Part shown: positions 1,803 to 16,160 of the stretch, piece by piece
How the letters are laid out: each line of letters starts with the position of its first letter
How positions within the stretch are numbered: position 1 is the first letter of the stretch
Source: Promethearchaeia archaeon
GTDB taxonomy: Archaea; Asgardarchaeota; Lokiarchaeia; Sigyniarchaeales; SOKP01
Reading direction: 5' to 3'
DNA length: 19,434 bases
Assembly (NCBI GenBank): GCA_046497275.1
Contig: JAWOFX010000145.1
Coordinates: forward strand, 1-19,434
The notes under the pieces: model-generated
What the model was told of the DNA's origin: nothing
Database searches by the model: none
The model's input: only the letters and a program-made list of their open reading frames with translations
Made by a program: the position numbers and the translations under genes

Positions 1803-2777
1803 TTATTCTTTTTTGATTTCAAAATGAACTTTATCAAAAATATTATGAATCTTCTGATGAATTTTAAATTTATTATTGATTATATTAGACCCGATATCTA
1901 TTAATTCCTCTTCATTAAATAGATTATTCAATAATATAGATTCAATTTTATTCATAATAGCATCCTTTACTTTGTAGGCGTATCGTCTCTTCTTTTTTTC
2001 TTCAATCAATTCTGACATTTTAACATAATCTTTGTGCTCCCAGATACTCTCAATTAATTCATCGACACCTTCACCACTTAAAGAGTTAGTCATATGTGCT
2101 GGAGGCCTCCATCCACTTTGAGAGGATGTGGCATCATCCAGCATCATTTCGATCTGCACCACCACCTCTTCTCCTCCTAAATCCTTTTTATTTACATCAT
2201 AAATATCACCGATTTCTATTATTCCTGCTTTCTGCATTTGAATCGCATCCCCAGCACCAGGAATTAATATCACTATTGTACTATATACAAGATTATAAAT
2301 TTCAAATTCTGCTTGCCCAACACCTACTGTCTCAATTATAATGATATCCATACCGAATGCTTCATATAATAGAGAGATGTCGAAAACAGCCCGAGAAATT
2401 CCACCTTTATATCCTCTTGATGCGAGACTTCTCATAAAGACATTGGGATGGCAAGAGATTTCTGAGAGACGTACTCGATCTCCTAAAAATGCCCCTCCAG
2501 TGAAAGGAGAAGTTGGATCAACAGAAATTACTCCTATTTTCATATCTTTCTCTACTAATCGCTTTACAATTTGCCCAGTCAATGTACTTTTGCCGACTCC
2601 TGGACTACCTGTAAGACCAATTATATAGGATTCATTTTCAATATCATCAAATTGCTTAAAAATTTCTAATGCAGAATCTGGATTATTTTCTACGAGTGTA
2701 ATTAATCTTGCTAAGGCTACTTTATCGTGGTTTTTGAATCGTTGACATAATTCTTCAATGTTATATTTCTTATTCAA
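1803..2777 (-). CDS. meaB: MeaB/ArgK-family GTPase chaperone of AdoCbl-dependent mutases
   Basis: N-terminal ALARLITLVEN, P-loop GSPGVGKS, DPTSPFTGGAFLGDRVR, ETVGVGQAE, NKKD; adjacent to mutase genes; TTG start preceded by GGTG. Confidence 0.93.
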   Translation of the reverse strand: MNKKYNIEELCQRFKNHDKVALARLITLVENNPDSALEIFKQFDDIENESYIIGLTGSPGVGKSTLTGQIVKRLVEKDMKIGVISVDPTSPFTGGAFLGDRVRLSEISCHPNVFMRSLASRGYKGGISRAVFDISLLYEAFGMDIIIIETVGVGQAEFEIYNLVYSTIVILIPGAGDAIQMQKAGIIEIGDIYDVNKKDLGGEEVVVQIEMMLDDATSSQSGWRPPAHMTNSLSGEGVDELIESIWEHKDYVKMSELIEEKKKRRYAYKVKDAIMNKIESILLNNLFNEEELIDIGSNIINNKFKIHQKIHNIFDKVHFEIKKE

Positions 2778-3030
2778 AAAGAATGCACCATAATATCATC
2801 ATTTCTCACTATATTTTTTTAAATAAGATTACAGAATTTTCTGTATTTCTTAGGTAGAAAAATATTTATTCCTATTATTAATTTATGAAATCGTAATTGT
2901 TTTTAATTTGAGATTAATAATTCTTCTTAAAATCATAAATATCGTGTTTTTTACTTATTTCTCATTATGCCTAGCCTTACTAACAATTAGTCGTAAAAAA
3001 GAAGGAATAAAAAAATGAATTCTTTCAAAT

Positions 3031-3435
3031 TTATTTTGTTTCAATATTATTATGGATAAAATCTACTATATCTTGAGTCATAGTTCCGGGACCAAATACT
3101 CCCGCAACCCCGATATCTTTAAGCTTCTTGAAATCTTTAGCAGGAATAACACCGCCTACTAGTATCATAAAATCGCCTTTTAACCTTTTTTCTTCTAATT
3201 TGTCTATCAGTTGCTTGGTATATGCAAGATGAGCTCCAGAATGAATACTTAATCCAATAATATCTACATCCTCATGAACTGCAGATTCCACAATTTGATT
3301 GATGTTTTGAAATCCTCCAAAAATTAATTCCATGCCTGCATCTCTAAGAGCTCTCGATACAACAATACCACCTCGCCAATGACCATCTATCCCTGGCTTA
3401 CTCATAAGCACTCTAATTTTTTTAGTTTGCTGCAT
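3031..3435 (-). CDS. Cobalamin-binding small subunit of an acyl-CoA mutase (MCM C-terminal domain-like)
   Basis: KPGIDGHWRG (DxHxxG base-off/His-on motif), IGLSIHSGAH, VGGVIP, FGPGT; 15 nt downstream of the large subunit. Confidence 0.93.
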   Translation of the reverse strand: MQQTKKIRVLMSKPGIDGHWRGGIVVSRALRDAGMELIFGGFQNINQIVESAVHEDVDIIGLSIHSGAHLAYTKQLIDKLEEKRLKGDFMILVGGVIPAKDFKKLKDIGVAGVFGPGTMTQDIVDFIHNNIETK

Positions 3436-3440
3436 TTTTA

Positions 3441-3447
3441 CACCTCC
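3441..3447 (-). promoter_or_regulatory. Shine-Dalgarno GGAGGTG for the mutase small subunit
   Basis: Minus strand GGAGGTG-TAAAA-ATG (start at 3435). Confidence 0.7.
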
Positions 3448-3450
3448 GGT

Positions 3451-5124
3451 TTAAATGGCGAGAGGGGGATCCCAAATACCCCATATCTCTCTATAAATAT
3501 CACAGATCTCTCCCACAGTAGCTCCCTCTTTGGTGGCTTTCATTACAACAGGCATCACATTTTCCTCTCGTTCGCAAACTTTTCGTAATTCATCGAGAAT
3601 TTCTTCTAGTTTATCATTATCTCGTCTCTTTTTTAATTTCTTAATACGCTCTATTTCAATTTTCATAGCTTCTTCATTTGTTCTAAACACATCCGTGACC
3701 TCATCATACGGAACTGGATATTTATTTACACCTAAGGTTATTTCTTCTCCAGTCTCCATCTTTTTCTGTCTTTTATGAAACGCATCTCTCATTTCTTTAT
3801 ATAACCAGCCTGTTGATAAAGCTTTATCTATTGATCCTACTTTCTCAATTTTATCTATATAATTCCATACTCGCTCTTCAATTTCATCGGTTAACCACTC
3901 AACATAATAGGATCCCGCCATTGGATCAACAGTGTTAGGAATTCTAGTCTCATCGGAAATTATTTGCTGAGTTCTAAGGGCAATTAAGGCGGCTTCTTTA
4001 GAGGGCAAACATATAGCTTCATCAAAAGAATTAGTGTGGAGTGATTGACATCCACCTATCGTTGCTTCTAGTGCTTGAATGGCTGTTCTAATAATATTAA
4101 CTTTCGGTAATTGAGCAGTTAAGGAACTTCCCGCTGTTTGGACATGAAATCTAAACTGCATGGATTTTTGATCTTCTACATCATATCGATCTCGCATTAA
4201 TTTTGCCCAAATTCTACGAGCGGCTCTATATTTTGCGATCTCTTCAAAAAAGTCTTTATGAGCAGAGAGGTGGAAGGCTAATCTATTCACAAAGTCGTCC
4301 ACCTTCCATCCTCGGTCGGCTATATTATCGATATGAGAACATGCACTAGCAAAGACAAAACCTAATTCTTGTACTGCGTCTATACCACCTTCTCGATAAT
4401 TATATCCAGTAAAATTAATTGGATGCCATTTTGGTACATTGCCCATCGGCACAGTCCATTCAATAAAATCACAAGCCAAATCAAGTAAATGTTTCGGGGG
4501 AACGTTCTTATAGGGAATATAACCGACTGTCATGGTCAAAATATCATTTTGTGTAGTTCCCATAAGTTGAGTTACATCATAGCCTCTCTTTTTTGCCATA
4601 TTATAATACATAGCAGAAACTGGAGCAGCGGTAAAAGGTTCAACAACCAATGCCACACTTATTTTATCAATTGGGACGTCTTCAGTTAACGCGAATAAAC
4701 TATCAATACAATAGAGAGGAACTCCAGATGTTCCTACTTCTGGTGCTCCATCTGAATTTGAAGGATCGATTCCATTAAAGGTTAATGCATCAACTGCCGC
4801 GCTAAATCCTGTTTCTCCATGCTCATATAAGAATTTCCACCGCTCATTCGTTTCTTCAGGAGTTCCATGTCCACTAAACAAACGCATAGTCCAAATTCTT
4901 CCCCGATACATAGTCGGATATGGTCCGCGCGTATATGGGGGTTGTCCTGGAAATCCGATATCTTCAATATAATTCGTTTTTACATCTAAGGGAGTATATA
5001 ATCGTTTAACTGGGATTCCCGAATCTGTTTCGAATTTTACATCACGCTCTTTTACATCCTTGAATTTTTTTTCCCATTTCTCTTTTTCTCTTCTGATCTT
5101 TTCTAAATATTCATCATCATACAT
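3451..5124 (-). CDS. AdoCbl-dependent acyl-CoA mutase large (substrate-binding) subunit, MCM/ICM family, atypical active site
   Basis: GFPGQPPYTRGPYPTMY, WTMRLFSG, GTTQNDIL, FFEEIAKYRAARRIW, FHVQTAGSSLTAQ, QSLHTNSFDEA, VDPMAGSYYVEWLT. No mcm symbol given because specificity residues differ from MCM. Confidence 0.93.
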   Translation of the reverse strand: MYDDEYLEKIRREKEKWEKKFKDVKERDVKFETDSGIPVKRLYTPLDVKTNYIEDIGFPGQPPYTRGPYPTMYRGRIWTMRLFSGHGTPEETNERWKFLYEHGETGFSAAVDALTFNGIDPSNSDGAPEVGTSGVPLYCIDSLFALTEDVPIDKISVALVVEPFTAAPVSAMYYNMAKKRGYDVTQLMGTTQNDILTMTVGYIPYKNVPPKHLLDLACDFIEWTVPMGNVPKWHPINFTGYNYREGGIDAVQELGFVFASACSHIDNIADRGWKVDDFVNRLAFHLSAHKDFFEEIAKYRAARRIWAKLMRDRYDVEDQKSMQFRFHVQTAGSSLTAQLPKVNIIRTAIQALEATIGGCQSLHTNSFDEAICLPSKEAALIALRTQQIISDETRIPNTVDPMAGSYYVEWLTDEIEERVWNYIDKIEKVGSIDKALSTGWLYKEMRDAFHKRQKKMETGEEITLGVNKYPVPYDEVTDVFRTNEEAMKIEIERIKKLKKRRDNDKLEEILDELRKVCEREENVMPVVMKATKEGATVGEICDIYREIWGIWDPPLAI

Positions 5125-5263
5125 AATTATAACACTTTTAATCGAATTGAAGAAATAAATTTAATTTCTTAATTAATAATAAATTACTATTGTTTTAATT
5201 AATTAAAAAATTTTAAGTATCATAAATATTGAAATAGTATTTTACAAGAATTAGATGATTTTT

Positions 5264-6199
5264 TTAAAAAGAAAAGCGATTAATTTTTCTTAATGTTTCT
5301 AAGTCAAACTTACTTGCTGCATATTCAGCTATAGGGACGATACACCCACAGTTCTCACATAATTTTTCTGAATTTCCCATTACGCAAAATTTCCGTTGAC
5401 CATTAGGATAATAACTTTTAACACCACCCATTTTAAATATACAATTAGGGATGAATTCTTTTGTAATGTATAATTCAAGCATTTTCTTCGAGAATATAAT
5501 AAAATCTCCATATTCACTTAAAACTTTTAAAATACTTTTGGTTACTGACTTAAGCATCTCTCCGCTTAATAATAATGGATCACCAGAATAACCGGTATAA
5601 AATAAGAAAAAAATACCTGAAACACCAATATCATAGGCAATTTTTACTACTTTCTCAATCTCCTTATAATTCATAGAACTTATGGTATGAGAAATTGTTA
5701 CTCTTTTATCATCCTCAATATTTTTGATAATTCTTTGAAATATTTTTGCCCCTCGTATTGAATTATGCATTTCTTCTCCACCATCTAAACTTACCCAATA
5801 AACTGGTTGTTTAAGACCCTTAAAATTTGGTAATTTTATTAGGCCATTAGATGCAACTTGGATTGTAGGAAATATTTTAAGAGCATGCTCGATTAAATTC
5901 ATTCTAAGAGTGGGTTCACCACCTGTTAGAGCCGCACTTACAATTCCTAAATTTCTATGATGATTAAATACTTTTAGCCATTGTTGATCCGTTAAATCTT
6001 GTATGGATCTAGAGGAATTTTTACCTAATTCACTTTTTGATGCATTAAAATAGCAATGTTTACAATTTAAATTACACTCCCAGGTTAAATCATAATTTAC
6101 GGCCATAGGTATTTTTCTAGTTTTGTTTTTTAAGAAGTTAAAACCCGCTTTAATGCCAGTTTTAATATTTTCTGGAGTGATTAAACCATTTATTACCAT
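5264..6199 (-). CDS. Radical SAM protein with C-terminal Cys cluster (SPASM/twitch-like)
   Basis: CNLNCKHC (CxxxCxxC), LTGGEP, VSLDG; C-terminal C..C..CENCGC. Confidence 0.88.
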   Translation of the reverse strand: MVINGLITPENIKTGIKAGFNFLKNKTRKIPMAVNYDLTWECNLNCKHCYFNASKSELGKNSSRSIQDLTDQQWLKVFNHHRNLGIVSAALTGGEPTLRMNLIEHALKIFPTIQVASNGLIKLPNFKGLKQPVYWVSLDGGEEMHNSIRGAKIFQRIIKNIEDDKRVTISHTISSMNYKEIEKVVKIAYDIGVSGIFFLFYTGYSGDPLLLSGEMLKSVTKSILKVLSEYGDFIIFSKKMLELYITKEFIPNCIFKMGGVKSYYPNGQRKFCVMGNSEKLCENCGCIVPIAEYAASKFDLETLRKINRFSF

Positions 6200-6316
6200 T
6201 GGATATTAATAAAATAAATTTAATATATTTAGAGTTTTTAAAATTATATTTTTTTATCCCTTAATAAAATATATCTTTTTTTAACCCATATTCTAAAAAT
6301 AGATATTTATTTTTCT

Positions 6317-7120
6317 TTACTTCGAGATAATGAAATTAAAATATTCTCCTTGCATTCGCCACGCATGAAAAAAACTATCGAATGTCCTTAATTCCCAATT
6401 TTTAATTATTGATTTAATCTCATTCATAAGATCTTTTAATAATTTAACACTGCAAGGAGATTTGCAATGTGAAGGAAATAGAATTATATCTTCGTATTTT
6501 TCTGAAATATTGATTAAATCAGAGAGCGTTTTTAATACGAGAGGGAATTCGTTTCGAGGAGGTAAAAAAATATCTCCATAGTAGGCTACATCTCCCGTGA
6601 ATAGTATATTATTTGTCTTTAGACAAATGGAACCAGGAGAATGCCCAGGAGCATGTATGATTTCTACATTCAGATCTCCTAAATCAAATATATCCTTATC
6701 ATGAAGATTAAGAATTTTATCAGCAGGAGGGACGAGAAAATTGTACTTTTCATACTTTTTTACACTTTTTCGGGGTGAATTTCGTAAAAAGGTGAGATTA
6801 TAATTGTTTTTAATAATATTTGCTTCATTTTTATGAATATAAACCTCCTCAAATTCATGATTCCCTAAAATATGGTCCCAATGAGCATGCGAGTTTATTA
6901 CAATTAATTCTCTTCCTTCTATTATATCTTTTACAATAGGCTTTAAAGGATAAAGACCACATCCCGTATCAAGCAATATTGCTCTTTTAGATCCTAGAAC
7001 AATATAAAGATTAAGAGGATCATTTCTATAGATGGGATGGATTTCTGAGATATTTTCCTGAATAGAAAAGACTTTATTATTTAATTTAGTTATTTTAAAA
7101 TGGTTATCTTTTTGCTTCAT
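6317..7120 (-). CDS. Metallo-beta-lactamase-fold hydrolase
   Basis: LLDTG, HAHWDH (HxHxDH), PGHSPGS, LFTGD and a late PSH motif. Confidence 0.9.
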   Translation of the reverse strand: MKQKDNHFKITKLNNKVFSIQENISEIHPIYRNDPLNLYIVLGSKRAILLDTGCGLYPLKPIVKDIIEGRELIVINSHAHWDHILGNHEFEEVYIHKNEANIIKNNYNLTFLRNSPRKSVKKYEKYNFLVPPADKILNLHDKDIFDLGDLNVEIIHAPGHSPGSICLKTNNILFTGDVAYYGDIFLPPRNEFPLVLKTLSDLINISEKYEDIILFPSHCKSPCSVKLLKDLMNEIKSIIKNWELRTFDSFFHAWRMQGEYFNFIISK

Positions 7121-7341
7121 TTCTTAAATAATTTGTTCATTTTAATTGATTCAATTTGAATTGGTTTGATATAATAATGAGATATTCTTTTAATCAAGTA
7201 ATTCTCTTTTAATCATAAAATTTTATTCTATAGAATAATAATTAAGAAAATATTTTTTAATTAATTGGATATCAAAAACATTTATATTTATATAATCCGT
7301 ATTTTTAATCATTCTAATAAGATTATAGAGGAAAAATTAAA

Positions 7342-8043
7342 ATGGGTAATGAGATTCGAGACCAAGCTGAAAAATTAGGTTTATTAAATCTTCCCGGTGT
7401 AACCCTATATGCTCATCCAAGCGGTGTAAGACAAACTTTTGCTAGGATAGTTCCCCATACGGACAAAGCAGTCGAAAATTATATTAGTCAAATCGATCCT
7501 TCTTTTGTTAAAGGAAGAAGCGGTGGATCAAGAGGATCAACCTACGTTGTATATGCTCCTAATGCTAAAATATATTTTGAAGATCAAGATCTTTATATTG
7601 GATGGGCGCATAATGAAAAAAATCATTTACAACAAATTAAAATTCATGCAGATACAGAAGAAAAAATAAGGCATATTGCTCAAATTATCGACAATCTGTA
7701 TACCAATGGAGTATTAGCTAACATAAATTGGAAAAAGATAAATAAGAAATATAAAATAGACGAAAAAGAAGGTATAGCAATGTGGAATAAAGTTTTGAAT
7801 AAACAAACCACAAAACCAAATTCTATCGATAAAGTAGAAGAATTCAAGGTCTGTCGTAAATGTGGGAAAGAAAATCCTATAGAAAATAAATTCTGTATTG
7901 AATGTGGAAATGAATTTCCTGATGAAGAATCCCAAAAGCAACATCTCGAAGAAAATGATCAAGAATTTAAGAAATGCAGTAAATGCGGTAAGCAAAATCC
8001 TATTAAAAACAAATTCTGTATAGAATGTGGAAAAAAATTTTAA
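7342..8043 (+). CDS. Hypothetical protein: unknown N-terminal domain plus two C-terminal zinc ribbons
   Basis: Two CxxCG-x9-CxxCG units; purine-rich GAGG upstream; followed by a T9 tract. Confidence 0.85.
   Translation: MGNEIRDQAEKLGLLNLPGVTLYAHPSGVRQTFARIVPHTDKAVENYISQIDPSFVKGRSGGSRGSTYVVYAPNAKIYFEDQDLYIGWAHNEKNHLQQIKIHADTEEKIRHIAQIIDNLYTNGVLANINWKKINKKYKIDEKEGIAMWNKVLNKQTTKPNSIDKVEEFKVCRKCGKENPIENKFCIECGNEFPDEESQKQHLEENDQEFKKCSKCGKQNPIKNKFCIECGKKF
7840..8040 (+). repeat. Intragenic duplication, two 78-nt zinc-ribbon units (7840-7917 and 7963-8040)
   Basis: EFKVCRKCGKENPIENKFCIECGNEF versus EFKKCSKCGKQNPIKNKFCIECGKKF, 20/26 aa identical. Confidence 0.9.
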
Positions 8044-8051
8044 AATAAATA

Positions 8052-8060
8052 TTTTTTTTT
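8052..8060 (+). terminator. T9 tract between convergent genes
   Basis: Nine T residues 9 nt after the stop at 8043. Confidence 0.45.
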
Positions 8061-8069
8061 AAAAATTTA

Positions 8070-8243
8070 TTAAGCTAAGTTGCTACAGCAATTAGTGCAT
8101 AATAATTCTTTTATATCTCTTACACCACATTCTCCGAAATCACATTCCCATTTATTTGCCGAAGAATTAAGGGAAATACTTAAACCACAAGTTAAAGGGA
8201 TTGTTTCTATTATTTTTCCACAATTTGCACATCTTAATTTCAT
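8070..8243 (-). CDS. 57-aa cysteine-rich putative metal-binding microprotein (not in the supplied ORF track)
   Basis: Manual translation: MKLRCANCGKIIETIPLTCGLSISLNSSANKWECDFGECGVRDIKELLCTNCCSNLA*. 8 Cys; SD GAGGTG (8257-8252) 8 nt upstream of ATG. Confidence 0.8.
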   Translation of the reverse strand: MKLRCANCGKIIETIPLTCGLSISLNSSANKWECDFGECGVRDIKELLCTNCCSNLA

Positions 8244-8638
8244 TCTTAATACACCTCTGAAAATTTTATTTTATTTTACCATTTCTTATATCAAAAATAG
8301 TTTTAATAAGAATTGCGCCAATGTTTTTGAATCTGAAATTAATAAAAAGTTTCAATAACAAATGAAAAGCATAAGGAAATTTATAGATTATAAATTATCT
8401 AATAAGATATAAGAAATTAATTTTTTAAAAAGTAATTAAGAATTTTTAGATCTATCATAATAACTTAATTTTGATATTTATAAACTATTAAAAATTTATA
8501 GATTTAAATTAATTTATTAAAAGAAGAAAAATAGTTTAGTTGTAGCTTTTTGGATCTATGTGTAAATTCACAAATTTTTTATTTTTCCATCAATTTTTTA
8601 AGACTAATTTAAATTAAACAAATGGAATATGATTAAAA

Positions 8639-9793
8639 ATGAATTTTTCGCTCACTAAGAGACAAAAAATGATTCGAAAGATAACGAGAGAATTTTCAGA
8701 GGAATATATTTCTCCAGTAGTAGAGGAAAGCGATCAAAACTCCCAATTAGACCCTAAAGTATTCGAAATGATGAAGAAAATGAAATATTTCGGTACTTGT
8801 ATTCCAAAGGAGTACGGTGGAGCAGGTCTACAAGACGACACAATTAGTTTTTGTATTGCTACAGAAGAGATCGGACGTATAGATGCCTCATGGAGCATTA
8901 CGACTGGAGTTCATTGTTCAGTTTGTGCATACCCCATTTATATTTTTGGAACGGATGATCAGAAAGATCGTTTTTTAATAGATCTTGCAACGGGGGAAAA
9001 ATTAGGAGCATTTGCATTAACAGAAGCAAACGCTGGCTCTGATGCTGGAGGAGTACAACTGACGGCTGTCAAGGATGGAGATGAATATATTCTTAATGGA
9101 AGTAAAATTTTTGCTACGAATGGAGGTATTGCTGAAACTCTATTAGTTGTGACGACTACAGGACAAAAAGGAAGAAGAAAGGAATTGACAATATTTATAG
9201 TTGATACAGACACACCAGGATATTCTGTGGGGGTCAGAGAAGACAAATTGGGAGTCCGTGCTTCAAATACTTCTGAATTGGTATTTCAAGATGTAAGAGT
9301 GCCTGAGGAAAATATACTAGGAAAAGTTGGACAAGGTTTTAGATTGAGTATGCAAATTTTAGATTATGGGAGGATTTTAATGGCAGCTCAATGTGTTGGT
9401 CTTGGACAAGCTTGCCTTGAAGCATCAATAAAATATGCAAATGAACGGGTACAATTTGGTCAAAAAATCGGACGTTTTCAAGGAATTCAATGGAAAATAG
9501 CGGATATGGCCACCGCAGTAGAGTCATCACGCCTATTAACTTATAAGGCAGCATATAAATGTGATATTGGAGAGGATTATGGACATGCTGGAGCAATGGC
9601 TAAATTAGTAGCTTCTGAATCAGCAATGCAAGCTGCTCATGATGCTGTACAAATCCATGGTGGATATGGATTAATGAAAGCTTATGATGTAGAGAGATAT
9701 TTCAGAGATGCTAAAATGGCTGAAATATATGAAGGAACTTCTGAAATTCAGCGTTATGTAATTGCTAATCATTTATTAAGAAAAGGAGCATGA
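8639..9793 (+). CDS. Acyl-CoA dehydrogenase (short-chain/Bcd-like)
   Basis: GAFALTEANAGSDAG, NGSKIFATNG, KLGVRASNT, RVQFGQKIG, AVQIHGGYG, IYEGTSEIQR with the catalytic Glu in the SCAD/MCAD position. Confidence 0.95.
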   Translation: MNFSLTKRQKMIRKITREFSEEYISPVVEESDQNSQLDPKVFEMMKKMKYFGTCIPKEYGGAGLQDDTISFCIATEEIGRIDASWSITTGVHCSVCAYPIYIFGTDDQKDRFLIDLATGEKLGAFALTEANAGSDAGGVQLTAVKDGDEYILNGSKIFATNGGIAETLLVVTTTGQKGRRKELTIFIVDTDTPGYSVGVREDKLGVRASNTSELVFQDVRVPEENILGKVGQGFRLSMQILDYGRILMAAQCVGLGQACLEASIKYANERVQFGQKIGRFQGIQWKIADMATAVESSRLLTYKAAYKCDIGEDYGHAGAMAKLVASESAMQAAHDAVQIHGGYGLMKAYDVERYFRDAKMAEIYEGTSEIQRYVIANHLLRKGA

Positions 9794-9801
9794 GTTGATA
9801 A
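9791..9801 (+). promoter_or_regulatory. TGAGTTGATAA SD-like motif before etfB (overlaps the ACAD stop)
   Basis: TGAGTTGATAA-TAA-ATG; GAGTTGAT is one mismatch from the anti-SD complement GAGGTGAT. The identical 11-mer occurs before two other genes. Confidence 0.6.
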
Positions 9802-9804
9802 TAA

Positions 9805-10608
9805 ATGAAAATATTTGTATGCATTAAGCAAGTACCGGGTGTTTCTGAAGTAAAGATTGATCCAGAAACAAACACACTAGTAAGAGAAGGTATCCCAAGC
9901 ATCATCAACCCTATGGATAAAAATGGGATTGAATTGGCATTAGAATTAAAGGAGAAATATAAGGCTGAAACAATTGGCATCAGTATGGGACCTCCTCAAG
10001 CAGAAGAGGCTCTTCGAGAGGCATTAGCTATGGGTTTAGATGAAGCATATTTACTTACAGACAGAGCGTTTGCGGGCGCGGATACTTTGGCGACATCTCA
10101 TACTCTATCAATGGGTATCAAAAAATTGATAAAGAATTATGGGGAGAGAGATAATTATTTAGTGATTTGTGGAACTCAAGCCATTGATGGAGATACTGCA
10201 CAAGTAGGACCAGAATTGGCAGAAGAATTAGGTATACCTCAAATTACTTATGTACAAAAATTTGAGATTAAAAATGATAAAGTGATTGTTGAACGCGCAT
10301 TCCGAGGGGAAGAAGTTGTTGTAATTGAAACTAAATTACCTGTTCTTGTTTCTGTCCTTAGAGATCTCAACGAACCAAGATATCCCAATTTAGATGGAAT
10401 AGTTGATTCTTATGAAAAAGAAGTGAAATATTTAAATCATGAAGATATCGAAGCAATAAAGAAAAATATTGGTCTGGTAGGTTCTCAGACAGAAGTTTGG
10501 AGGATATTTGTTCCCAAAAGAAAAGGAGAACATATTATATTGGAAGGCTCAATAGAAGAGCGAGTAAGTGAATTATGTGAAAGATTAAGAGAGGATAAGC
10601 TAATCTAA
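9805..10608 (+). CDS. etfB: Electron transfer flavoprotein beta subunit
   Basis: MKIFVCIKQVP, INPMD, SMGPPQA, DRAFAGADTLATS, QAIDGDTAQVGP, EPRYP. Confidence 0.96.
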   Translation: MKIFVCIKQVPGVSEVKIDPETNTLVREGIPSIINPMDKNGIELALELKEKYKAETIGISMGPPQAEEALREALAMGLDEAYLLTDRAFAGADTLATSHTLSMGIKKLIKNYGERDNYLVICGTQAIDGDTAQVGPELAEELGIPQITYVQKFEIKNDKVIVERAFRGEEVVVIETKLPVLVSVLRDLNEPRYPNLDGIVDSYEKEVKYLNHEDIEAIKKNIGLVGSQTEVWRIFVPKRKGEHIILEGSIEERVSELCERLREDKLI

Positions 10609-10620
10609 GGAGGTTAAAAA

Positions 10621-11820
10621 ATGAGTATAATAATAGACAATGAATTGTGCACAGGCTGTGGAGCATGTGTTGATAATTGCCCATTTGGAGGAATGGAAAT
10701 AAAAGATAATGTAGCGTGCATAACTGGTGAATGTACATTATGTGGAGCTTGTGTTGATGTTTGTCCCGTTGAGGCGATCACAATTGAAAAGGAAGAGTTT
10801 AAAATCCCAAAAATGGATCTTTCTAAATTCAAAGGGATAATGGTAATTGGCGAACAATTTCGAAATGAAATTCAAAGTGTAGTTTATCAACTTTTGGGAA
10901 AAGGAAGGGATTTAGCAGATAAATTAGGAGTAGACGTATCGGTTGTGCTTTTGGGTTCTGATCTAGATGATAAACTAAAAGAGTTAGGAGAGTATGGGGC
11001 AGATGAAGTTATTTATGTTAAATCTCCCATTTTAAAAGATTATTATTCTGATTTATATGTTAATACTTTAACTGAAATAATCCAAGAGCGAAAGCCAGAA
11101 ATTGTTCTAATAGGAGCAACTCCAACCGGTAGGGATTTTGCTCCTCGCCTCTCAAAACGATTATATGCAGGATGTACAGCTGACTGCACGGGATTAGATA
11201 TTGAAGAAGATACGGGAAATTTGTTACAAACTAGACCGACGTTTGGAGGGAATATTATGGCAACGATTAGAACCCCAACGAGTAGACCTCAAATGAGCAC
11301 CGTTCGACCAGGTATTTTTGAACCTATTGAAAAAATAGATAAAAAACCTAAAATAACAATTATCGAAAAAAAATTTGATGAAGAGGACTCCGTTACTAAA
11401 ATCCTTAAAATTATTGATAAAGAAAAGATTGCTGTTAATCTTGAAGAGGCAGAAGTAATCGTTTCTGGAGGAAGGGGAGTCGGAAATAAAGAAAATTTCA
11501 AAATAATTAAAGAATTAGCAGAAGCATTAGGAGGAGAAGTTGGAGGATCCAGAGTTACTGTTGAATTAGAATGGATTGAGCAAGACAGACAAGTTGGTCA
11601 AACGGGAAAAACAGTGTCGCCTAAACTATATATCGCATGTGGTATCTCTGGAGCCATCCAGCATTTAGTCGGAATGGAAACATCAGATATTATCGTGGCA
11701 ATTAATAAGGATCCTAATGCTCCAATTTTCGATGTGGCTCATTATGGAATTATTGATGATTTACATAAAGTGGTACCCGCTCTCACAGAAGAAATAAAAA
11801 AAAGAAAATCAAAAAATTAA
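10621..11820 (+). CDS. etfA: Electron transfer flavoprotein alpha subunit with N-terminal 2x[4Fe-4S] ferredoxin domain
   Basis: CTGCGACVDNCP and CTLCGACVDVCP, then TADCT, QTRPTFGGN, IVSGGRG, QVGQTGKTV, GISGAIQH, AINKDPNAPIF; SD AGGAGGT upstream. Confidence 0.96.
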   Translation: MSIIIDNELCTGCGACVDNCPFGGMEIKDNVACITGECTLCGACVDVCPVEAITIEKEEFKIPKMDLSKFKGIMVIGEQFRNEIQSVVYQLLGKGRDLADKLGVDVSVVLLGSDLDDKLKELGEYGADEVIYVKSPILKDYYSDLYVNTLTEIIQERKPEIVLIGATPTGRDFAPRLSKRLYAGCTADCTGLDIEEDTGNLLQTRPTFGGNIMATIRTPTSRPQMSTVRPGIFEPIEKIDKKPKITIIEKKFDEEDSVTKILKIIDKEKIAVNLEEAEVIVSGGRGVGNKENFKIIKELAEALGGEVGGSRVTVELEWIEQDRQVGQTGKTVSPKLYIACGISGAIQHLVGMETSDIIVAINKDPNAPIFDVAHYGIIDDLHKVVPALTEEIKKRKSKN

Positions 11821-11961
11821 ATTGACTTTTACTTAAAATCTTTTTATTGCTTTTCCACAATTAATATTTTCTTATATAAATCAACTTAGACATATAAATT
11901 GATTTTTAGTATATTTTAAAACCTAAAAAAAAGTAATAAGAAAAAAGAAATTTTCCAAAGG

Positions 11962-12753
11962 CTAAACTTTATCTAACCTACCACCATTTATGCCAATTAT
12001 CTCGCCGTTCATAAACCAAGCATCTTCGCTGCATAAGAAAAGGATTACACGCGAAACATATTCTGGCTCTCCAATTCCCATTGGAATTCTTCCTGAATAA
12101 TATTTCCTCCATTTTCCATCTTGTTTTGATAACAATTCTCCGAGAATTGGTGTTTCAATTAATGTTGGCATAATAGCATGCGTCTTCACATTATAGCGTA
12201 TTAATTCTAATCCCGCCGTTTTTATCATACCTAACATTCCAGCTTTCGCTGCCGAATAATTTAATTGCCCAATGTTTCCTTCAGCTGCTTGACTCGATAT
12301 TGTAATAATTCTTCGGTCAGGATAGTCCGCAATCTCTTCTTTGGGGTTTTCCTTACATATATCAATCCATCTTTTTACACATGCTTGCATAGATAAAAAA
12401 AATCCCTTAAGGTGAGTATCTATTACCGCATTCCATCTCTGTTCGGGTAGTTTATGTATCATACCATCCTGTAAAATACCAGCAGAATGAATGAGAAAGT
12501 CATTAGGACCATATGTATCAAAAGTGTTTTGTATTGCTTGATCAACAGCCTCTATATCTCTCACATCTCCTTCAATAAACGTCACTTCTCCGCCAAGCTC
12601 TTTTATCTCATTTTCAACTTTTTTTCCATTCTCAGCATCAAAATCGTATAAAACTACTTTTGCTCCTTCTTTAGCAAAATCCTTAGCTGTCTGTCTTCCT
12701 AGTCCAGAAGCCCCTCCGGTGATAAAAGCCACTTTACCATTAAATCTTTCCAT
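11962..12753 (-). CDS. Short-chain dehydrogenase/reductase, FabG/(3R)-hydroxyacyl-CoA dehydrogenase-like, probably NAD-dependent
   Basis: TGGASGLG, acidic residue after beta2 (LYDFD), ISS, GQLNYSAAK (YxxxK). Confidence 0.9.
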   Translation of the reverse strand: MERFNGKVAFITGGASGLGRQTAKDFAKEGAKVVLYDFDAENGKKVENEIKELGGEVTFIEGDVRDIEAVDQAIQNTFDTYGPNDFLIHSAGILQDGMIHKLPEQRWNAVIDTHLKGFFLSMQACVKRWIDICKENPKEEIADYPDRRIITISSQAAEGNIGQLNYSAAKAGMLGMIKTAGLELIRYNVKTHAIMPTLIETPILGELLSKQDGKWRKYYSGRIPMGIGEPEYVSRVILFLCSEDAWFMNGEIIGINGGRLDKV

Positions 12754-13678
12754 ATTTTTCGACCTTAAATTACATCAATTTTTTATTATTTTATTATTAT
12801 TTTTTTTAACATAAAAATCTTTTAAAATCAGAATCTACGCAAACCGGGGAATTTAAGAATGAATTTATAAGAGATTAAATCAAATTAGTTGGGTACTTGA
12901 TTCTGATTCAATTTTATGATATTAAAGTTCAAAAAAGAAAAGAAAGTAATGGAATGCTTGAAATATAGTTATTAGCACGTTAAAATTTATTAGTGGAGGA
13001 ATAAATTAATTATGGCTAAAAACAAACATTCCATTACTATGTCGAAAAAAATTTTTCTAATTCATAATATGTATTTTTAGATTAATAAATCTTTCGTCAA
13101 TTTTATGAACGCTGTGTTTAAGTATCTCTTTAAATAGTTTGCTATGATATAATTTTGTAAGCATTTTTATTAGATTTCTTTTATACTTCCTTAAGATAAT
13201 AATATAGAAAGAAAGAGCTCATAGATTTACTTAAAAATAAAAAAAGATCTTTAAGTAAATTTGATAGAATGTATTTTTTTTATAGATTATCAACCAAATT
13301 TCCCAATAAATTCTGATTTATTAAGTTTGGAAGAAAAGAAAAATAGATTTTATTAAGATTTTAATAAGAAAGAAATCAGAAGAGGTGGTCCTAAACACCC
13401 ACAGGTCTTTATTATAAGGATATCAACTATATTAAATATGATATTCGGGTTCAATTTTATAATTTACCTTAATCTTTAAGATTTTAGGATTTTTTGTATA
13501 AATCAATTATATACTAGTACATAAAGAAGGCTGAATATTAACAGTTTTATCGATATAATCACAAAAAAAAATTTCCTTTTCAATTTTCAATAGAATTATG
13601 AGGAATAATTAAAATAGAATTAAATATAAAGAATAAGTTTTATAGATTAAAAAGCTAAAAATTTAAAGTGAAGGTTAA

Positions 13679-14197
13679 ATGAGTGAAAATGAAAAAAAAG
13701 TAGAATACATCCCCTTTGTTGGTGCGGTTGATGATTATGTAGGGCGATCAGCGTGGGATTTTTATAGTTGGGGGCACGTTGACATGGGTATCGCAGCATT
13801 CATATTCTTCTCCCTTTTTATCACCATTCCTGAATATTATTTAGGACAGGGTACTGGATTTTTTCCATGGTGGTGCGCATTTTTGCTAACTATCGCTGTT
13901 GGTATTTTGTGGGAGATTCTTGAAAATACCTTAATATATTATTGGGGATGGCGTCCTGGAGGATTAGATAGCGTAGTTAACGCGGTTTGGGATATCATAT
14001 TTGTCACTTTAGGTGGCGGTGTGATGTGGTTATTAAAATGGATAATTATAAATTTTTTTGGATATCCAGGAAGATGGTTTTATATTGCTGCATTTAATTC
14101 CTTTCTGATCATATTGATATGTTATCTTATTGGTTTTTATATCACTAATGAGAATACTAAAAAAGCTAGACAGAAGAGAGGCAAATCGATAAGTTAA
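13679..14197 (+). CDS. Integral membrane protein, DUF2585-like
   Basis: About 4 hydrophobic segments; polar motifs DFYSWGHVDMG, WEILENT, DSVVNAVWD resemble the DUF2585 pattern as I recall it. The CDS is solid; the family call is tentative. Confidence 0.7.
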   Translation: MSENEKKVEYIPFVGAVDDYVGRSAWDFYSWGHVDMGIAAFIFFSLFITIPEYYLGQGTGFFPWWCAFLLTIAVGILWEILENTLIYYWGWRPGGLDSVVNAVWDIIFVTLGGGVMWLLKWIIINFFGYPGRWFYIAAFNSFLIILICYLIGFYITNENTKKARQKRGKSIS

Positions 14198-14432
14198 TTA
14201 TATTTTAATTTTTTTCTTTTTTTCAAATTTGATTCTTAAATTCTTTTATAGGACAAATAAAAAAATCTTCCTAAATTTAATTATAAAATCAACTCTCAAT
14301 AGTTTAATGGTCAAAATTAAACATATAAATTCAAATATATAATCTTAAAAAAAAATTAATTAAATTGTTAAATAAATAATCAAAATTAGGATTTAACTTC
14401 TCTTTATAATAAAATAGAGTGTTTAATGAAAG

Positions 14433-14849
14433 CTATAATTCATCGCCTTCTATCAAATCAAAATTTTCTGCCTTAAGAATTTCTAGAGCTTTCTCCGAAT
14501 CATCAACCTTTACGATTATAAGACTATTATGCTGAGGTGTAGTCGTTAAATAAAGATAATCGATATTTATCTTATTGTTGCCTAAAATATTCGCAACATT
14601 AAATAAGGTTGAAGGTTCATTTCCAAATTTAATAGCTACAACTTCAGTCGAGGAGAATTCATATCCATTCTCCTCTAAATGGTTTATACACTTCTGAGGT
14701 TTATCTACTAAAAGTAGAATCAATCCATAATCTGCAGTTTCTACTACTGATATTGCTCTAACATTAATTCCATTTTCATTTAATTCTTTTAATAAATCCG
14801 CCAACTCTCCAGGTTTATTTGGTAAAAATACACTTAATTCTGTTATCAA
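14433..14849 (-). CDS. Tandem-ACT domain protein (Bt0572-like), paralog 1
   Basis: SVFLPNKPGELA, NVRAISVVETADYG, NIDYLY; TTG start. Confidence 0.9.
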   Translation of the reverse strand: MITELSVFLPNKPGELADLLKELNENGINVRAISVVETADYGLILLLVDKPQKCINHLEENGYEFSSTEVVAIKFGNEPSTLFNVANILGNNKINIDYLYLTTTPQHNSLIIVKVDDSEKALEILKAENFDLIEGDEL

Positions 14850-14991
14850 TTCATAACACTCTCTTTTTCATATTTAATTTGAATTAATTTATTTCTTTTT
14901 GATATTTTAAAAAAGTTATTTATATTAAAAATAATCAAACGTTACTTTTCAAGATAACTCTATTCAAAATAAGATATTTTTAATTTAGTAT

Positions 14992-15411
14992 TCAGAATTT
15001 TTCTCGTTCTTCTAAGAGAAATCCATTATTCTTTAACACATCTATAGCTTTTTCGTTATCATCCACTCTTAGGATTAGCAGAGATTCATCTTTGACCAAA
15101 GTTGAATACATATATTCAATATTTATACCACCCTCTCCCAGAATTTTAGAGATTTTTAAGACACCCTTAGTATGTCCTTCTTCTGATAAAACTTTTACTG
15201 CTATAACTTCTGTAACAGAATAAATATGATCTTTTTCTTCTAATAATTCAATACATTTATTAGGTTTATCAACTAATAATAAGAGTAAGCCATACTCCTC
15301 ATTTTCGGCAACAGTAATCGCTCGAATTTCAATATCATTCTCAACTAATAAAGTTGCAAATCGAGCTAATTGCCCAGGAACATTCTTTAAATATACTGAA
15401 ATATTTTTCAT
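14992..15411 (-). CDS. Tandem-ACT domain protein (Bt0572-like), paralog 2
   Basis: SVYLKNVPGQLA, IRAITVAENEEYG, INIEYMYS; GGAG upstream. Confidence 0.9.
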   Translation of the reverse strand: MKNISVYLKNVPGQLARFATLLVENDIEIRAITVAENEEYGLLLLLVDKPNKCIELLEEKDHIYSVTEVIAVKVLSEEGHTKGVLKISKILGEGGINIEYMYSTLVKDESLLILRVDDNEKAIDVLKNNGFLLEEREKF

Positions 15412-15629
15412 TCGTGTTGTAGACTCCTTCTAATAATATTTTGATATAAAATCTAAGTTATAAAAATTGAAGAGCTCTTTAAAACTATTGCATTATTTTA
15501 TTTTATTTAATAGTGAATTTTTTCTAGCTTTTTAATAGCTTTGCATTTCGAATTGATTATATTTTAAATAATACCATTTCTATCAGTTAGAAAGATTTTT
15601 TTCATGAGTTTAGATAAAATTAAAATCAA

Positions 15630-16043
15630 TTAAAAATCTTGGTTTTTAACTAATTTAACTCCGTTATCTTCCAAAATTCTCACCGCTTTTTCAATATCAT
15701 CTACTTTTAACACAATTATCGCTTCTTGTCTAATTAAAGTGCTGTATATATATTCTATATTAATATCATTATCTCCTAATATTTCTGCGATTTCATGCAA
15801 TGATCCGGGCTTGTCAGGAATTTGAATTGCTATGACATCGGCGATTGAAACTAAATAATTATTTTTTCTAAGAACTTTTACACATTCCTCAGTTTTATCA
15901 ACTAAAGTTCTTAATATGCCAAAGTCAGCTGTTTCAGCAACAGTTAAAGCTCTCAAATTAACATTGTTATCTTGAATAATTTTTGTAAATTTACTCAATA
16001 CACCTGGAGTATTTTCCAGAAAAACACTGATTTGTTTTAACAT
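15630..16043 (-). CDS. Tandem-ACT domain protein (Bt0572-like), paralog 3
   Basis: MLKQISVFLENTPG, NLRALTVAETADFGILR, IPDKPGSL, INIEYIYS; GGAG upstream. Confidence 0.92.
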   Translation of the reverse strand: MLKQISVFLENTPGVLSKFTKIIQDNNVNLRALTVAETADFGILRTLVDKTEECVKVLRKNNYLVSIADVIAIQIPDKPGSLHEIAEILGDNDINIEYIYSTLIRQEAIIVLKVDDIEKAVRILEDNGVKLVKNQDF

Positions 16044-16160
16044 TTTTAAAAAACTCCATATCTGTGATTTTTTTAACCATTTTTATTTAATATAATTTTA
16101 TTTAGTAAGAAGTATAAAAAAAATATATTTTTATTTTGATTATTCTATTTGAGAGGATAT

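What the first reader, a model, noticed from the sequence alone, without database searches (positions are those of the whole stretch)
1803..12753. Candidate rearrange-then-oxidise pathway: atypical mutase plus ACAD/ETF plus hydroxyacyl-CoA-type SDR
Seen: the mutase module and the ACAD-etfBA operon with a convergent SDR lie within about 11 kb. Knowledge: mutases with Phe at position 89 convert branched to linear acyl-CoAs, which ACAD/ETF and hydroxyacyl-CoA dehydrogenases can then oxidise. Inference: a pathway for a branched acyl-CoA from amino-acid or lipid breakdown in an anaerobic archaeon. Caveats: the two blocks are separate transcription units, and no CoA ligase, hydratase or thiolase is in the window.
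Basis: inference. Interest (0 to 1): 0.6.

Follow-up and report, generated by a model that had tools for sequence, protein, structure and literature searches.

The report
Orphan B12 mutase beside Bcd-EtfAB operon
A Loki-type Asgard archaeon carries an uncharacterised vitamin-B12 acyl-CoA mutase next to its only butyryl-CoA-dehydrogenase/electron-bifurcating flavoprotein operon, an ancestral neighbourhood in its family that many relatives have since lost, so a shared pathway is plausible but unproven.

Summary
All the genes named are present at the stated coordinates. They are a MeaB / B12-subunit / large-subunit mutase operon with Phe, Tyr and Asn at the MCM Tyr89, Arg207 and His244 positions, a tight ACAD-etfB-etfA operon, and a convergent SDR.

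- **Mutase.** It is not an isobutyryl-CoA mutase. It belongs to a Lokiarchaeia-restricted clade inside a large uncharacterised "Asn-244" radiation, so the "Phe89 means branched-to-linear" rule cannot be transferred.
- **ACAD/ETF.** It is a Bcd-EtfAB-type electron-bifurcating complex with a CarE-like ferredoxin domain. It is the only ETF in a genome with about 14 ACAD loci, so it is a general module. Its direction is open, and Asgard literature reads it as reductive.
- **Synteny.** Across 80 species-level loci the ACAD lies divergent within 10 kb of the mutase in 32 of 54 informative cases. This looks ancestral but has been broken at least 13 times. It is not seen in one genus of the same family or in the sister family, both of which keep the mutase.
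- **SDR.** It is sporadic (8 of 46).
- **Addition.** A GctAB-like CoA-transferase flanks the operon in 26 of 50 relatives.

Best reading: a loosely coupled module around C4 acyl-CoAs. The substrate and the direction of flux are unknown.

The parts
1803..2777 (-). MeaB-type G-protein chaperone of the mutase
   Evidence: PF03308 2.6e-78 and TIGR00750 286 bits, above cut-off. P-loop GSPGVGKS present. Found downstream of MutS in 64 of 66 informative relatives.
3031..3435 (-). B12-binding small subunit (MutS)
   Evidence: PF02310 and TIGR00640 133 bits. DGHWRG matches the DxHxxG base-off/His-on motif. Adjacent to MutL in 78 of 78 loci.
3451..5124 (-). Acyl-CoA mutase large subunit with the Phe / Tyr(Phe) / Asn signature (P0001)
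   Evidence: PF01642 full length, 1.8e-167. Best PDB match is HcmA 4R3U at 433 bits, against MCM at 344. The signature is conserved in about 145 orthologs. Orthologs at 69% identity or more occur only in families f1 and f19.
5264..6199 (-). Radical SAM protein of unknown role; probably not part of the module
   Evidence: PF04055, with only weak NCBIfam hits. Near the mutase in 7 of 48 loci and elsewhere in other genomes. No specific similarity to the rSAMs next to other mutases.
6317..7120 (-). MBL-fold hydrolase, a frequent neighbour divergent from the ACAD
   Evidence: PF00753 1.7e-20. Lies between mutase and ACAD in 22 of 52 loci. Function not determined.
8639..9793 (+). Bcd-type acyl-CoA dehydrogenase / enoyl-CoA reductase
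   Evidence: Three ACAD domains. Best PDB matches are C. difficile Bcd 5OL2 at 386 bits and A. fermentans Bcd 4L1F. Catalytic-base motif YEGTSEI at residue 364.
9805..10608 (+). EtfB, bifurcating type
   Evidence: CarD 6FAH_B 250 bits and 5OL2_B 225 bits, against human ETF-beta 90 bits.
10621..11820 (+). EtfA with an N-terminal 2x[4Fe-4S] ferredoxin domain
   Evidence: Full-length match to CarE 6FAH_A, 391 bits, residues 2-394. Two CxxCxxCxxxC motifs. Together with EtfB these are the only PF01012 matches in the genome.
11962..12753 (-). Classical SDR, possibly a (3R)-hydroxyacyl-CoA dehydrogenase / 3-oxoacyl reductase
   Evidence: adh_short 1.2e-44. TGGASGLG and YSAAK motifs. Best PDB match is the MFE-2 (3R)-hydroxyacyl-CoA dehydrogenase 2ET6 at 174 bits, followed by BbsD and FabG. 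The ortholog is sporadic among relatives.

Best explanation
Two self-contained units lie side by side.

**Unit 1** is an adenosylcobalamin acyl-CoA mutase: large subunit, B12-binding subunit and MeaB chaperone. It belongs to an uncharacterised clade found only in Lokiarchaeia. Its substrate pocket is non-polar: Phe for Tyr89, Tyr or Phe for Arg207, Ala and Val near HcmA Asp117, and Asn for His244.

**Unit 2** is the organism's only bcd-etfBA operon. It encodes a flavin-based electron-bifurcating enoyl-CoA reductase / acyl-CoA dehydrogenase with a CarE-like ferredoxin domain.

I infer that the family's ancestor carried a small acyl-CoA island in this order: GctAB-like CoA-transferase, mutase operon, Bcd-EtfAB, SDR. 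In it the mutase would interconvert a branched (or tertiary) and a linear C4-C5 acyl-CoA. The linear form would belong to the butyryl / crotonyl / 3-hydroxybutyryl-CoA pool, which Bcd-EtfAB and the SDR act on. The acids would enter or leave through the CoA-transferase.

The coupling is loose. Bcd-EtfAB also serves the rest of the cell's acyl-CoA metabolism, and the island has been broken up in many descendants.

**Shown:** gene identities, the signature, the bifurcating-type ETF, and the distribution and synteny. **Inferred:** the substrate class, any flux between the units, and the direction of that flux.
For: - **Gene identities and intact cofactor motifs:**
- **Signature:** conserved in about 145 orthologs, with Tyr/Phe alternation at the Arg207 position. 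That argues against a carboxylate or an obligatory H-bond there.
- **ACAD linkage:** ACAD-etfBA is divergent within 10 kb of MutL in 32 of 54 informative loci, including all the early-branching clades with informative flanks on the MutL tree. In six loci the intergenic spacer is only 144-491 bp.
- **CoA-transferase:** glutaconate-CoA-transferase-like subunits lie within 10 kb downstream in 26 of 50 loci.
- **SDR:** where present it always lies just beyond etfA, and it stays next to the mutase in genus g3 after the ACAD-ETF was lost.
- **Chance:** sitting next to the single ETF operon by chance is about 0.5% for one genome (20 kb of 3.85 Mb).
- **Precedent for the logic:** butyryl-CoA from reverse beta-oxidation, then a mutase, then a CoA-transferase to isobutyrate, reversible, in Clostridium luticellarii.
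- **Related clade:** another Asn-244 mutase clade has the operon CoA-transferase A/B - MutL - MutS - MeaB - SDR.
Against: - All the synteny comes from one family, so it is essentially one inherited event.
- The linked state changes at least 13 times on the tree (33 linked, 23 not; shuffled labels average 17.9, minimum 12). The gap ranges from 145 to 9127 bp, which looks like neutral erosion.
- Genus g3 (0 of 3) and family f19 (0 of 6) keep the mutase but lack this ACAD. Their ETFs lie elsewhere, about 500 kb away in the closed genome G038.
- Genomes G113 and G150 have the ACAD but not the mutase.
- The ETF is the only one for about 14 ACAD loci, so it is not dedicated to the mutase.
- The genome already holds a Phe/Gln/His ICM-like mutase with its own MutS and MeaB.
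- The window's own genome has no ortholog of the CoA-transferase.
- No expression or biochemical data exist.
Confidence: 0.42

Rival explanations
1. There is no functional coupling. The adjacency is inherited gene order in one archaeal family. Bcd-EtfAB is the general butyrate-fermentation / beta-oxidation redox module, and the mutase serves another, unknown pathway.
For: - It is the sole ETF for about 14 ACAD loci.
- Imachi et al. describe Bcd-EtfAB association as general in Asgard genomes and read it as butyrate fermentation.
- Linkage is lost repeatedly and the spacing is unconstrained.
- The mutase persists without this ACAD/ETF in g3 and f19.
- Flanking genes with no acyl-CoA role (HTH regulator, ICMT-like, nitroreductase, ACT, methyltransferase) are conserved about as often.
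- The genome is dense in acyl-CoA genes: 21 ECH matches and 7 3HCDH.
Against: - The neighbours that recur are enriched for CoA-ester enzymes on both sides of the mutase: CoA-transferase, Bcd-EtfAB, SDR, and in a subset an AbfD-like protein.
- Sister family f19 independently places SDRs and thiolase/DUF35 pairs beside the mutase.
- In several lineages the two operons share one short divergent spacer.
Confidence: 0.33
2. [quoted passage not shown] The SDR oxidises 3-hydroxybutyryl-CoA to acetoacetyl-CoA, and Bcd-EtfAB reduces the crotonyl-CoA branch, giving a disproportionating fermentation of a tertiary or branched hydroxy acid that the CoA-transferase activates.
For: - The best solved-structure match is HcmA (433 bits against 344 for MCM).
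- The enzyme shares Asn244 and the extra residue in the 207 loop with a bacterial clade whose operon is CoA-transferase - MutL - MutS - MeaB - SDR. In L153 a 682-aa TPP enzyme lies upstream. That resembles the Desulfococcus/Desulfosarcina acetone cluster: a 685-aa TPP enzyme, an 'RcmAB-like' 2-hydroxyisobutyryl-CoA mutase and an SDR dehydrogenase.
- The window SDR is closest to a (3R)-hydroxyacyl-CoA dehydrogenase.
- f19 has SDRs and thiolases beside the mutase.
Against: - The Hcm determinants Ile90 and Asp117 are Phe and Ala here.
- Tyr/Phe alternation at the 207 position argues against a hydroxyl-binding role.
- The SDR ortholog is near the mutase in only 8 of 46 loci, and the f19 SDRs are not its orthologs (34% identity).
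- That the L153 clade equals RcmAB is my inference from gene content, not a sequence comparison.
- Identity to that clade is only 41%.
Confidence: 0.15
3. One reading: a dedicated catabolic route in which an ICM-like mutase linearises a branched acyl-CoA derived from an amino acid, which this ACAD/ETF and this SDR then oxidise.
For: - Phe at position 89 and a non-polar pocket.
- The ACAD is closest to short straight-chain butyryl-CoA dehydrogenases.
- Fd-domain ETFs can run oxidatively, as in the lactate dehydrogenase LctBCD 7QH2 (282 bits to EtfA).
- Anaerobic isobutyrate degradation via isomerisation to butyrate is established knowledge (Stieb and Schink 1989, seen only as a reference-list entry).
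Against: - ICM membership fails on Gln198, on His244 and on clade placement.
- The SDR is not a conserved partner.
- The ETF is not dedicated.
- The hydratase and thiolase are absent here. They sit instead beside a different mutase paralog on contig C20, together with another ACAD and an ADP-forming acyl-CoA synthetase.
Confidence: 0.1

Closest known systems
Isobutyryl-CoA mutase (IcmA/IcmB with MeaB; fused IcmF, PDB 4XC6) in anaerobic butyrate/isobutyrate isomerisation
   Same: Split large and small subunits plus a MeaB chaperone. Phe at the Tyr89 position and a non-polar pocket. The pathway logic of mutase plus CoA-transferase plus Bcd-type reductase has been described for Clostridium luticellarii.
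   Different: Tyr/Phe replaces the ICM Gln198 and Asn replaces the catalytic His244. The 207 loop has an extra residue and the Lys-Glu pair is lost. The enzyme sits outside the MCM/ICM/HCM clade. It scores only 185 bits to IcmF. The genome has a separate Phe/Gln/His paralog.
2-Hydroxyisobutyryl-CoA mutases: HcmAB (PDB 4R3U) and the distantly related RcmAB-like enzymes of Kyrpidia and Desulfococcus, with their SDR 3-hydroxybutyryl-CoA dehydrogenase
   Same: HcmA is the best solved-structure match. An SDR and a CoA-activating enzyme lie nearby. The enzyme shares Asn244 and the loop insertion with a bacterial clade whose gene content resembles the Desulfococcus acetone cluster.
   Different: HcmA Ile90 and Asp117 are Phe and Ala here. 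Identity to either group is only 38-42%. The link to RcmAB is inferred and was not tested by sequence.
Bcd-EtfAB and CarCDE flavin-based electron-bifurcating enoyl-CoA reductases (PDB 5OL2, 4KPU/4L1F, 6FAH)
   Same: The operon order is acad-etfB-etfA. All three subunits match these complexes best. EtfA carries the CarE-type two-cluster ferredoxin domain, and the catalytic Glu is present.
   Different: It is archaeal, it is the sole ETF of the genome, and it is not embedded in a crt-hbd-thl butyrate operon. Its activity and direction are untested.
IaaGH phenylsuccinyl-CoA mutase with the IaaF decarboxylating ACAD in anaerobic indoleacetate degradation (lead from earlier scan note e1-5161364)
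   Same: A known 'rearrange with a B12 mutase, then act with an ACAD' module. From my own recollection, unchecked here, a CoA-transferase lies in the same cluster.
   Different: As I recall, that system handles dicarboxylic succinyl-type esters. Here the Arg207-equivalent that binds the substrate carboxylate in MCM is absent, and the ACAD keeps its normal catalytic base and its ETF operon.

Membership tests
AdoCbl-dependent acyl-CoA mutase superfamily (MCM-like) | Full-length MM_CoA_mutase substrate barrel | tested here: met
   PF01642 1.8e-167, profile positions 1-512 of 512. TIGR00641 554 bits.
AdoCbl-dependent acyl-CoA mutase superfamily (MCM-like) | B12-binding partner with the DxHxxG motif and a MeaB G-protein | tested here: met
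   DGHWRG in the small subunit and a P-loop in MeaB.
AdoCbl-dependent acyl-CoA mutase superfamily (MCM-like) | Conserved core residues equivalent to Gln197, Tyr243, Gln330 and Asn366 (numbering from my own knowledge of P. shermanii MCM) | tested here: met
   TTQND, GYN, HVQTAG and LHTN are aligned with the paralogs.
Isobutyryl-CoA mutase (ICM) | Phe at MCM Tyr89 | tested here: met
   RLFSG.
Isobutyryl-CoA mutase (ICM) | Gln at MCM Arg207 | tested here: not met
   Tyr in the window, Tyr or Phe in orthologs, with a one-residue insertion.
Isobutyryl-CoA mutase (ICM) | Catalytic His244 retained and placement within the ICM clade | tested here: not met
   Asn in all of about 145 orthologs. The tree places the clade with other non-canonical representatives, away from the Phe/Ala/His sequences.
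Methylmalonyl-CoA mutase (MCM) | Tyr89 and Arg207, which bind the substrate carboxylate | tested here: not met
   Phe and Tyr/Phe.
2-Hydroxyisobutyryl-CoA mutase (HcmAB type) | Ile90 and Asp117 | tested here: not met
   Phe and Ala in the HMMER alignment to 4R3U.
Electron-bifurcating Bcd-EtfAB / CarCDE complexes | ETF subunits of the bifurcating group rather than the AMP-binding respiratory group | tested here: met
   EtfA scores 391/332/281 bits to 6FAH/5OL2/4KPU, against 156 to human ETF. EtfB scores 250/225/204 against 90.
Electron-bifurcating Bcd-EtfAB / CarCDE complexes | ACAD partner encoded in the same operon, with the catalytic glutamate | tested here: met
   Gaps of 11-12 nt between the genes. 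YEGTSEI motif. Best matches are Bcd 5OL2_C and 4L1F.
Electron-bifurcating Bcd-EtfAB / CarCDE complexes | NADH-dependent coupled reduction of ferredoxin and enoyl-CoA | not testable with these tools
   Needs an enzyme assay.
(3R)-Hydroxyacyl-CoA dehydrogenase type SDR | Classical SDR cofactor and catalytic motifs | tested here: met
   TGGASGLG and YSAAK.
(3R)-Hydroxyacyl-CoA dehydrogenase type SDR | Specific relationship to hydroxyacyl-CoA dehydrogenases rather than to FabG or other SDRs | tested here: inconclusive
   2ET6 scores 174 bits, but BbsD and FabG structures score 146-148 bits. FabG is the best NCBIfam hit and falls below its cut-off.
Functional gene cluster (one pathway) | Linkage conserved beyond shared descent, in independent lineages | tested here: inconclusive
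   32 of 54 within one family, with at least 13 state changes. Not seen within about 9 kb in three f19 loci.
Functional gene cluster (one pathway) | Co-occurrence of mutase, ACAD/ETF and SDR across genomes | tested here: not met
   Mutase with ACAD in 18 of 23 mutase-bearing genomes. Five genomes have the mutase only and two the ACAD only. The SDR was found in 6 of the 26 family genomes. f19 has the mutase only.
Functional gene cluster (one pathway) | Co-expression | not testable with these tools
   No transcript data were available.

The most novel reading that the evidence does not exclude
The ancestral four-part island (GctAB-like CoA-transferase, Asn-244 B12 mutase with MeaB, bifurcating Bcd-EtfAB, SDR) is a Lokiarchaeia-specific fermentation route for a branched or tertiary C4-C5 acid, such as isobutyrate or 2-hydroxyisobutyrate. 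It would run on a mutase with a substrate specificity, and possibly a His-independent rearrangement chemistry, not yet described. It would link branched-chain carbon to ferredoxin-coupled energy conservation in the closest archaeal relatives of eukaryotes.
Probability: 0.2. Interest if true: 0.65.

Novelty: new variant of a known kind. Interest (0 to 1): 0.4.

Why it matters
Lokiarchaeia are the cultured and metagenomic reference point for the archaeal host of eukaryogenesis, and their energy metabolism is argued largely from gene inventories. A strongly conserved B12 mutase (77-92% identity within the family, 69-70% to the sister family) that fits no characterised specificity class is a real gap in those inventories. 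If it feeds or drains the Bcd-EtfAB node, it would change how branched-chain amino-acid carbon and reducing equivalents are budgeted in syntrophy models.

This report also corrects two easy misreadings. "Phe89 means ICM" does not hold here. "ACAD plus ETF means oxidation" does not follow either, because the ETF is the bifurcating type and the only one in the genome.

Tried and rejected
I replaced them with genome regions and tblastn.
- **Context of the nearest outgroup clade.** For P0122 (46% identity, Phe/Ala/Asn) only 2-6 kb contigs were found, holding MutL-MutS and unrelated genes. This was uninformative.
- **A mutase-associated radical SAM family.** The rSAMs upstream of the window mutase, of the C109 paralog and of the L153 bacterial mutase share only the CxxxCxxC core. 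Rejected.
- **A shared operator in the short divergent ACAD/MutL spacers.** The alignment of six spacers is AT-rich with no convincing conserved motif.
- **AbfD-like dehydratase as the mutase's partner (3-hydroxyisobutyryl-CoA to 4-hydroxybutyryl-CoA).** The gene is inserted between MutS and MeaB in only 8 of 51 loci. It is a subclade insertion, in agreement with earlier scan note e1-5572957.
- **Asgard hits at 47-49% identity as possible intermediates.** They carry canonical Tyr or Phe with His244.
- **Specificity papers.** The papers that define the specificity residues (Jost 2015, Kurteva-Yaneva 2015, Weichler 2015, Cracan and Banerjee 2012) are not held. The residue rules for MCM, ICM and HCM therefore rest on my own knowledge plus the alignments.

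Full report
**What is there.** The window is a whole 19.4-kb contig (C181) of a 3.85-Mb genome with 30% G+C, estimated 98.9% complete. Record titles of close relatives name them Promethearchaeota / Promethearchaeia, that is Lokiarchaeia-type Asgard archaea.

- On the minus strand lie MeaB (1803-2777), a B12-binding small subunit (3031-3435) and a full-length mutase large subunit (3451-5124). Upstream of these are a radical SAM gene (5264-6199) and an MBL-fold gene (6317-7120).
- On the plus strand lie a zinc-ribbon protein, a 92-aa ORF, and then a tight ACAD-etfB-etfA operon (8639-11820, 11-12 nt between genes).
- A convergent SDR follows at 11962-12753.
- Cofactor and catalytic motifs are intact: DGHWRG in the B12 subunit, a P-loop in MeaB, YEGTSEI in the ACAD, two CxxCxxCxxxC motifs at the EtfA N-terminus, and TGGASGLG with YSAAK in the SDR.

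**The mutase.** HMMER alignments to human MCM and to HcmA, together with an alignment of the three large-subunit paralogs of this genome, fix the signature.

- Phe replaces MCM Tyr89 (RLFSG).
- Tyr replaces Arg207, with one extra residue after it and loss of the Lys-Glu pair.
- Asn replaces His244 (GYNYRE).
- Ala replaces HcmA Asp117.
- The other two paralogs are canonical. C20 has Tyr/Arg/His (MCM-like). C109 has Phe/Gln/His (ICM-like) and its own B12 subunit and MeaB.

The signature is invariant in about 145 orthologs, except that the Arg207-equivalent alternates between Tyr and Phe. That argues for a non-polar pocket rather than a hydroxyl or carboxylate contact.

Orthologs are very well conserved but narrowly distributed. 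Among 151 sampled Asgard genomes, hits at 69% identity or more occur only in the window's own family (f1, 22 of 25 besides the window) and in family f19 (5 of 6). Every other hit is at 49% or less. An exhaustive search of 1.84 billion cluster representatives found no full-length representative above 50% identity. The nearest is P0122 at 46%.

A FastTree of 127 sequences places the clade, with P0122, inside a large and diverse assemblage of mutase-like proteins that lack His244. It lies away from the MCM/ICM/HCM-like sequences. All the Asn-244 clades I aligned share the extra loop residue.

**The ACAD/ETF.** All three proteins match the structurally characterised electron-bifurcating complexes best.

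- EtfA aligns end to end with CarE of the caffeyl-CoA reductase, including the ferredoxin domain (6FAH, 391 bits). It also matches C. difficile EtfA (5OL2, 332 bits), against 156 bits for human ETF-alpha.
- EtfB scores 250 and 225 bits to the same complexes, against 90 for human ETF-beta.
- The ACAD is closest to C. difficile and A. fermentans butyryl-CoA dehydrogenases.

A family search finds no other ETF gene in the genome, while 15 matches (about 14 loci) to the ACAD C-terminal domain exist. This is therefore the cell's general Bcd-EtfAB, not a mutase-specific accessory.

Sequence cannot settle its direction. Fd-domain ETFs run reductively in CarCDE and oxidatively in the lactate dehydrogenase LctBCD. 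Imachi et al. 2020 note that Asgard butyryl-CoA dehydrogenases tend to sit with EtfAB, and they read this as butyrate fermentation. "Rearrange then oxidise" is thus only one of two possible directions.

*Sampled family genomes.*
- In the 26 sampled genomes of family f1 (G000 included), the mutase ortholog was found in 23 and the ACAD ortholog (73% identity or more) in 20. Both were found in 18, the mutase alone in 5 (all three g3 genomes among them), the ACAD alone in 2, and neither in 1.
- f19 has the mutase but not this ACAD.
- The ETFs of f19 and g3 are about 50% identical to the window's and lie elsewhere, roughly 500 kb from the mutase in the closed genome G038.
- The SDR ortholog was found in only 6 of the 26 family genomes.

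*Census of all GTDB species representatives.* This returned 80 loci. The counts below are by tblastn. "Informative" means the gene was found, or at least 9 kb of flank was available without it.

| Neighbour of MutL | Present / informative |
|---|---|
| MutS | 78 / 78 |
| MeaB | 64 / 66 |
| ACAD, upstream within 10 kb, always divergent (gap 145-9127 bp, median 3.3 kb) | 32 / 54 |
| EtfB | 27 / 51 |
| MBL-fold | 22 / 52 |
| SDR | 8 / 46 |
| Radical SAM | 7 / 48 |

On a tree of the mutases, the early-branching clades with informative flanks are all linked, so the arrangement is probably ancestral. The state nevertheless changes at least 13 times (33 linked, 23 not). Shuffled labels average 17.9 changes with a minimum of 12. 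The tree is poorly resolved, which inflates this count. Even so, the pattern is one of erosion rather than maintenance. In six loci the two operons share one spacer of 144-491 bp, but I found no conserved motif in it.

**New context from relatives.**
- Downstream of MeaB, 26 of 50 loci carry two convergent genes for a glutaconate-CoA-transferase-like enzyme (1POI, 124 and 100 bits). The window's own genome has no ortholog.
- Where the SDR is present it always lies just beyond etfA. Genus g3 kept the SDR and its flanking genes next to the mutase after losing ACAD-etfBA.
- I infer the ancestral order as CoA-transferase, MeaB-MutS-MutL, (MBL), ACAD-EtfB-EtfA, SDR.
- In f19 the mutase is flanked by non-orthologous SDRs and by thiolase/DUF35 pairs.
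- A bacterial Asn-244 clade (L132, L153, L194) has the operon CoA-transferase A/B - MutL - MutS - MeaB - SDR. In L153 a 682-aa TPP enzyme and a radical SAM gene lie upstream.
- That gene content resembles the Desulfococcus/Desulfosarcina acetone cluster. There a 685-aa TPP enzyme, an "RcmAB-like" 2-hydroxyisobutyryl-CoA mutase and an SDR 3-hydroxybutyryl-CoA dehydrogenase act in sequence. This equivalence is my inference; I could not compare the sequences.

**Reading.** The recurring partners are all CoA-ester enzymes acting around C4 acyl-CoAs (butyryl, crotonyl, 3-hydroxybutyryl).

- I therefore favour (0.42) a loosely coupled module. In it the mutase interconverts a branched or tertiary C4-C5 acyl-CoA and a linear one, which Bcd-EtfAB and, where present, the SDR act on. 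The CoA-transferase would handle acid entry or exit. The closest described logic is the reversible butyryl-CoA / isobutyryl-CoA / isobutyrate route of Clostridium luticellarii. Substrate and direction are inferred, not shown.
- The main rival (0.33) is that the adjacency is inherited gene order with no shared flux.
- A hydroxyacyl-CoA (Rcm/Hcm-like) version gets 0.15.
They sit beside the canonical MCM-like paralog on contig C20. On gene content alone that locus is the more complete "mutase plus beta-oxidation" set in this genome.

**Novelty and limits.** The Bcd-EtfAB is a known kind, and its presence in Asgard genomes is already published. The mutase clade is uncharacterised, and I found no paper that names it. 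The proposed pathway is a variant of known mutase-plus-acyl-CoA-redox modules. An earlier scan note on another genome (e1-5572957) judged an AbfD-like insertion in what appears to be the same orphan mutase operon to be recent. My count of 8 of 51 loci agrees.

Noticed in passing
G000 contig C20 (locus L031) 4518-12958: The canonical Tyr/Arg/His mutase large subunit (5800-7476, minus strand) sits between an archaeal-type thiolase and a DUF35 gene. It is divergent from an ACAD - enoyl-CoA hydratase - thiolase - ADP-forming acyl-CoA synthetase row. No B12 small subunit or MeaB is nearby, and the genome has three large subunits but only two small subunits and two MeaB.
   Followed up: partly
Relatives, e.g. 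L004:5021-5902 and L021:10144-11040; 26 of 50 loci: A two-subunit glutaconate-CoA-transferase-like enzyme, often with a nitroreductase gene between the subunits, lies convergent 1.6-9.3 kb downstream of MeaB in many relatives. No ortholog was found in the window's genome.
   Followed up: partly
L153:5991-13975, L132:3594-9482, L194:1433-6045 (metagenome contigs, 53-66% G+C): A bacterial Asn-244 mutase clade has the operon CoA-transferase A/B - MutL - MutS - MeaB - SDR. In L153 a 682-aa TPP enzyme and a radical SAM gene lie upstream. The gene content resembles the published Desulfococcus acetone / 2-hydroxyisobutyryl-CoA cluster.
   Followed up: partly
L011:2395-3933, L012:5697-8542 and six other loci: An AbfD/HpaB-family gene, sometimes with a PLP-dependent enzyme gene, is inserted on the opposite strand between MutS and MeaB in 8 of 51 loci. 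The window's genome has five paralogs of it elsewhere.
   Followed up: partly
L026, L027, L029 (family f19): The f19 ortholog (69-70% identity, Phe at the Arg207 position) has no MeaB within about 9 kb. It is flanked by one or two SDR genes, an amidinotransferase-fold gene and tandem DUF35/thiolase pairs.
   Followed up: partly
G076:C24:12318-13454 and G006:C1:120744-121877: The best ACAD matches in family f8 (52-53% identity) each contain one in-frame stop (TAG, TAA). This could mean a pseudogene, a sequencing error or recoding.
   Followed up: no
window 7342-8358: The zinc-ribbon protein and the 92-aa ORF between the MBL gene and the ACAD have no counterpart (45% identity or more) in any of the 80 related loci. 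They look like a lineage-specific insertion.
   Followed up: partly
window 13679-18466: The genes beyond the SDR (172-aa hypothetical, ACT-pair genes, methyltransferase, 136-aa protein) keep their neighbourhood with the SDR in genus g3, where only one ACT-pair gene is present against three tandem copies here.
   Followed up: no
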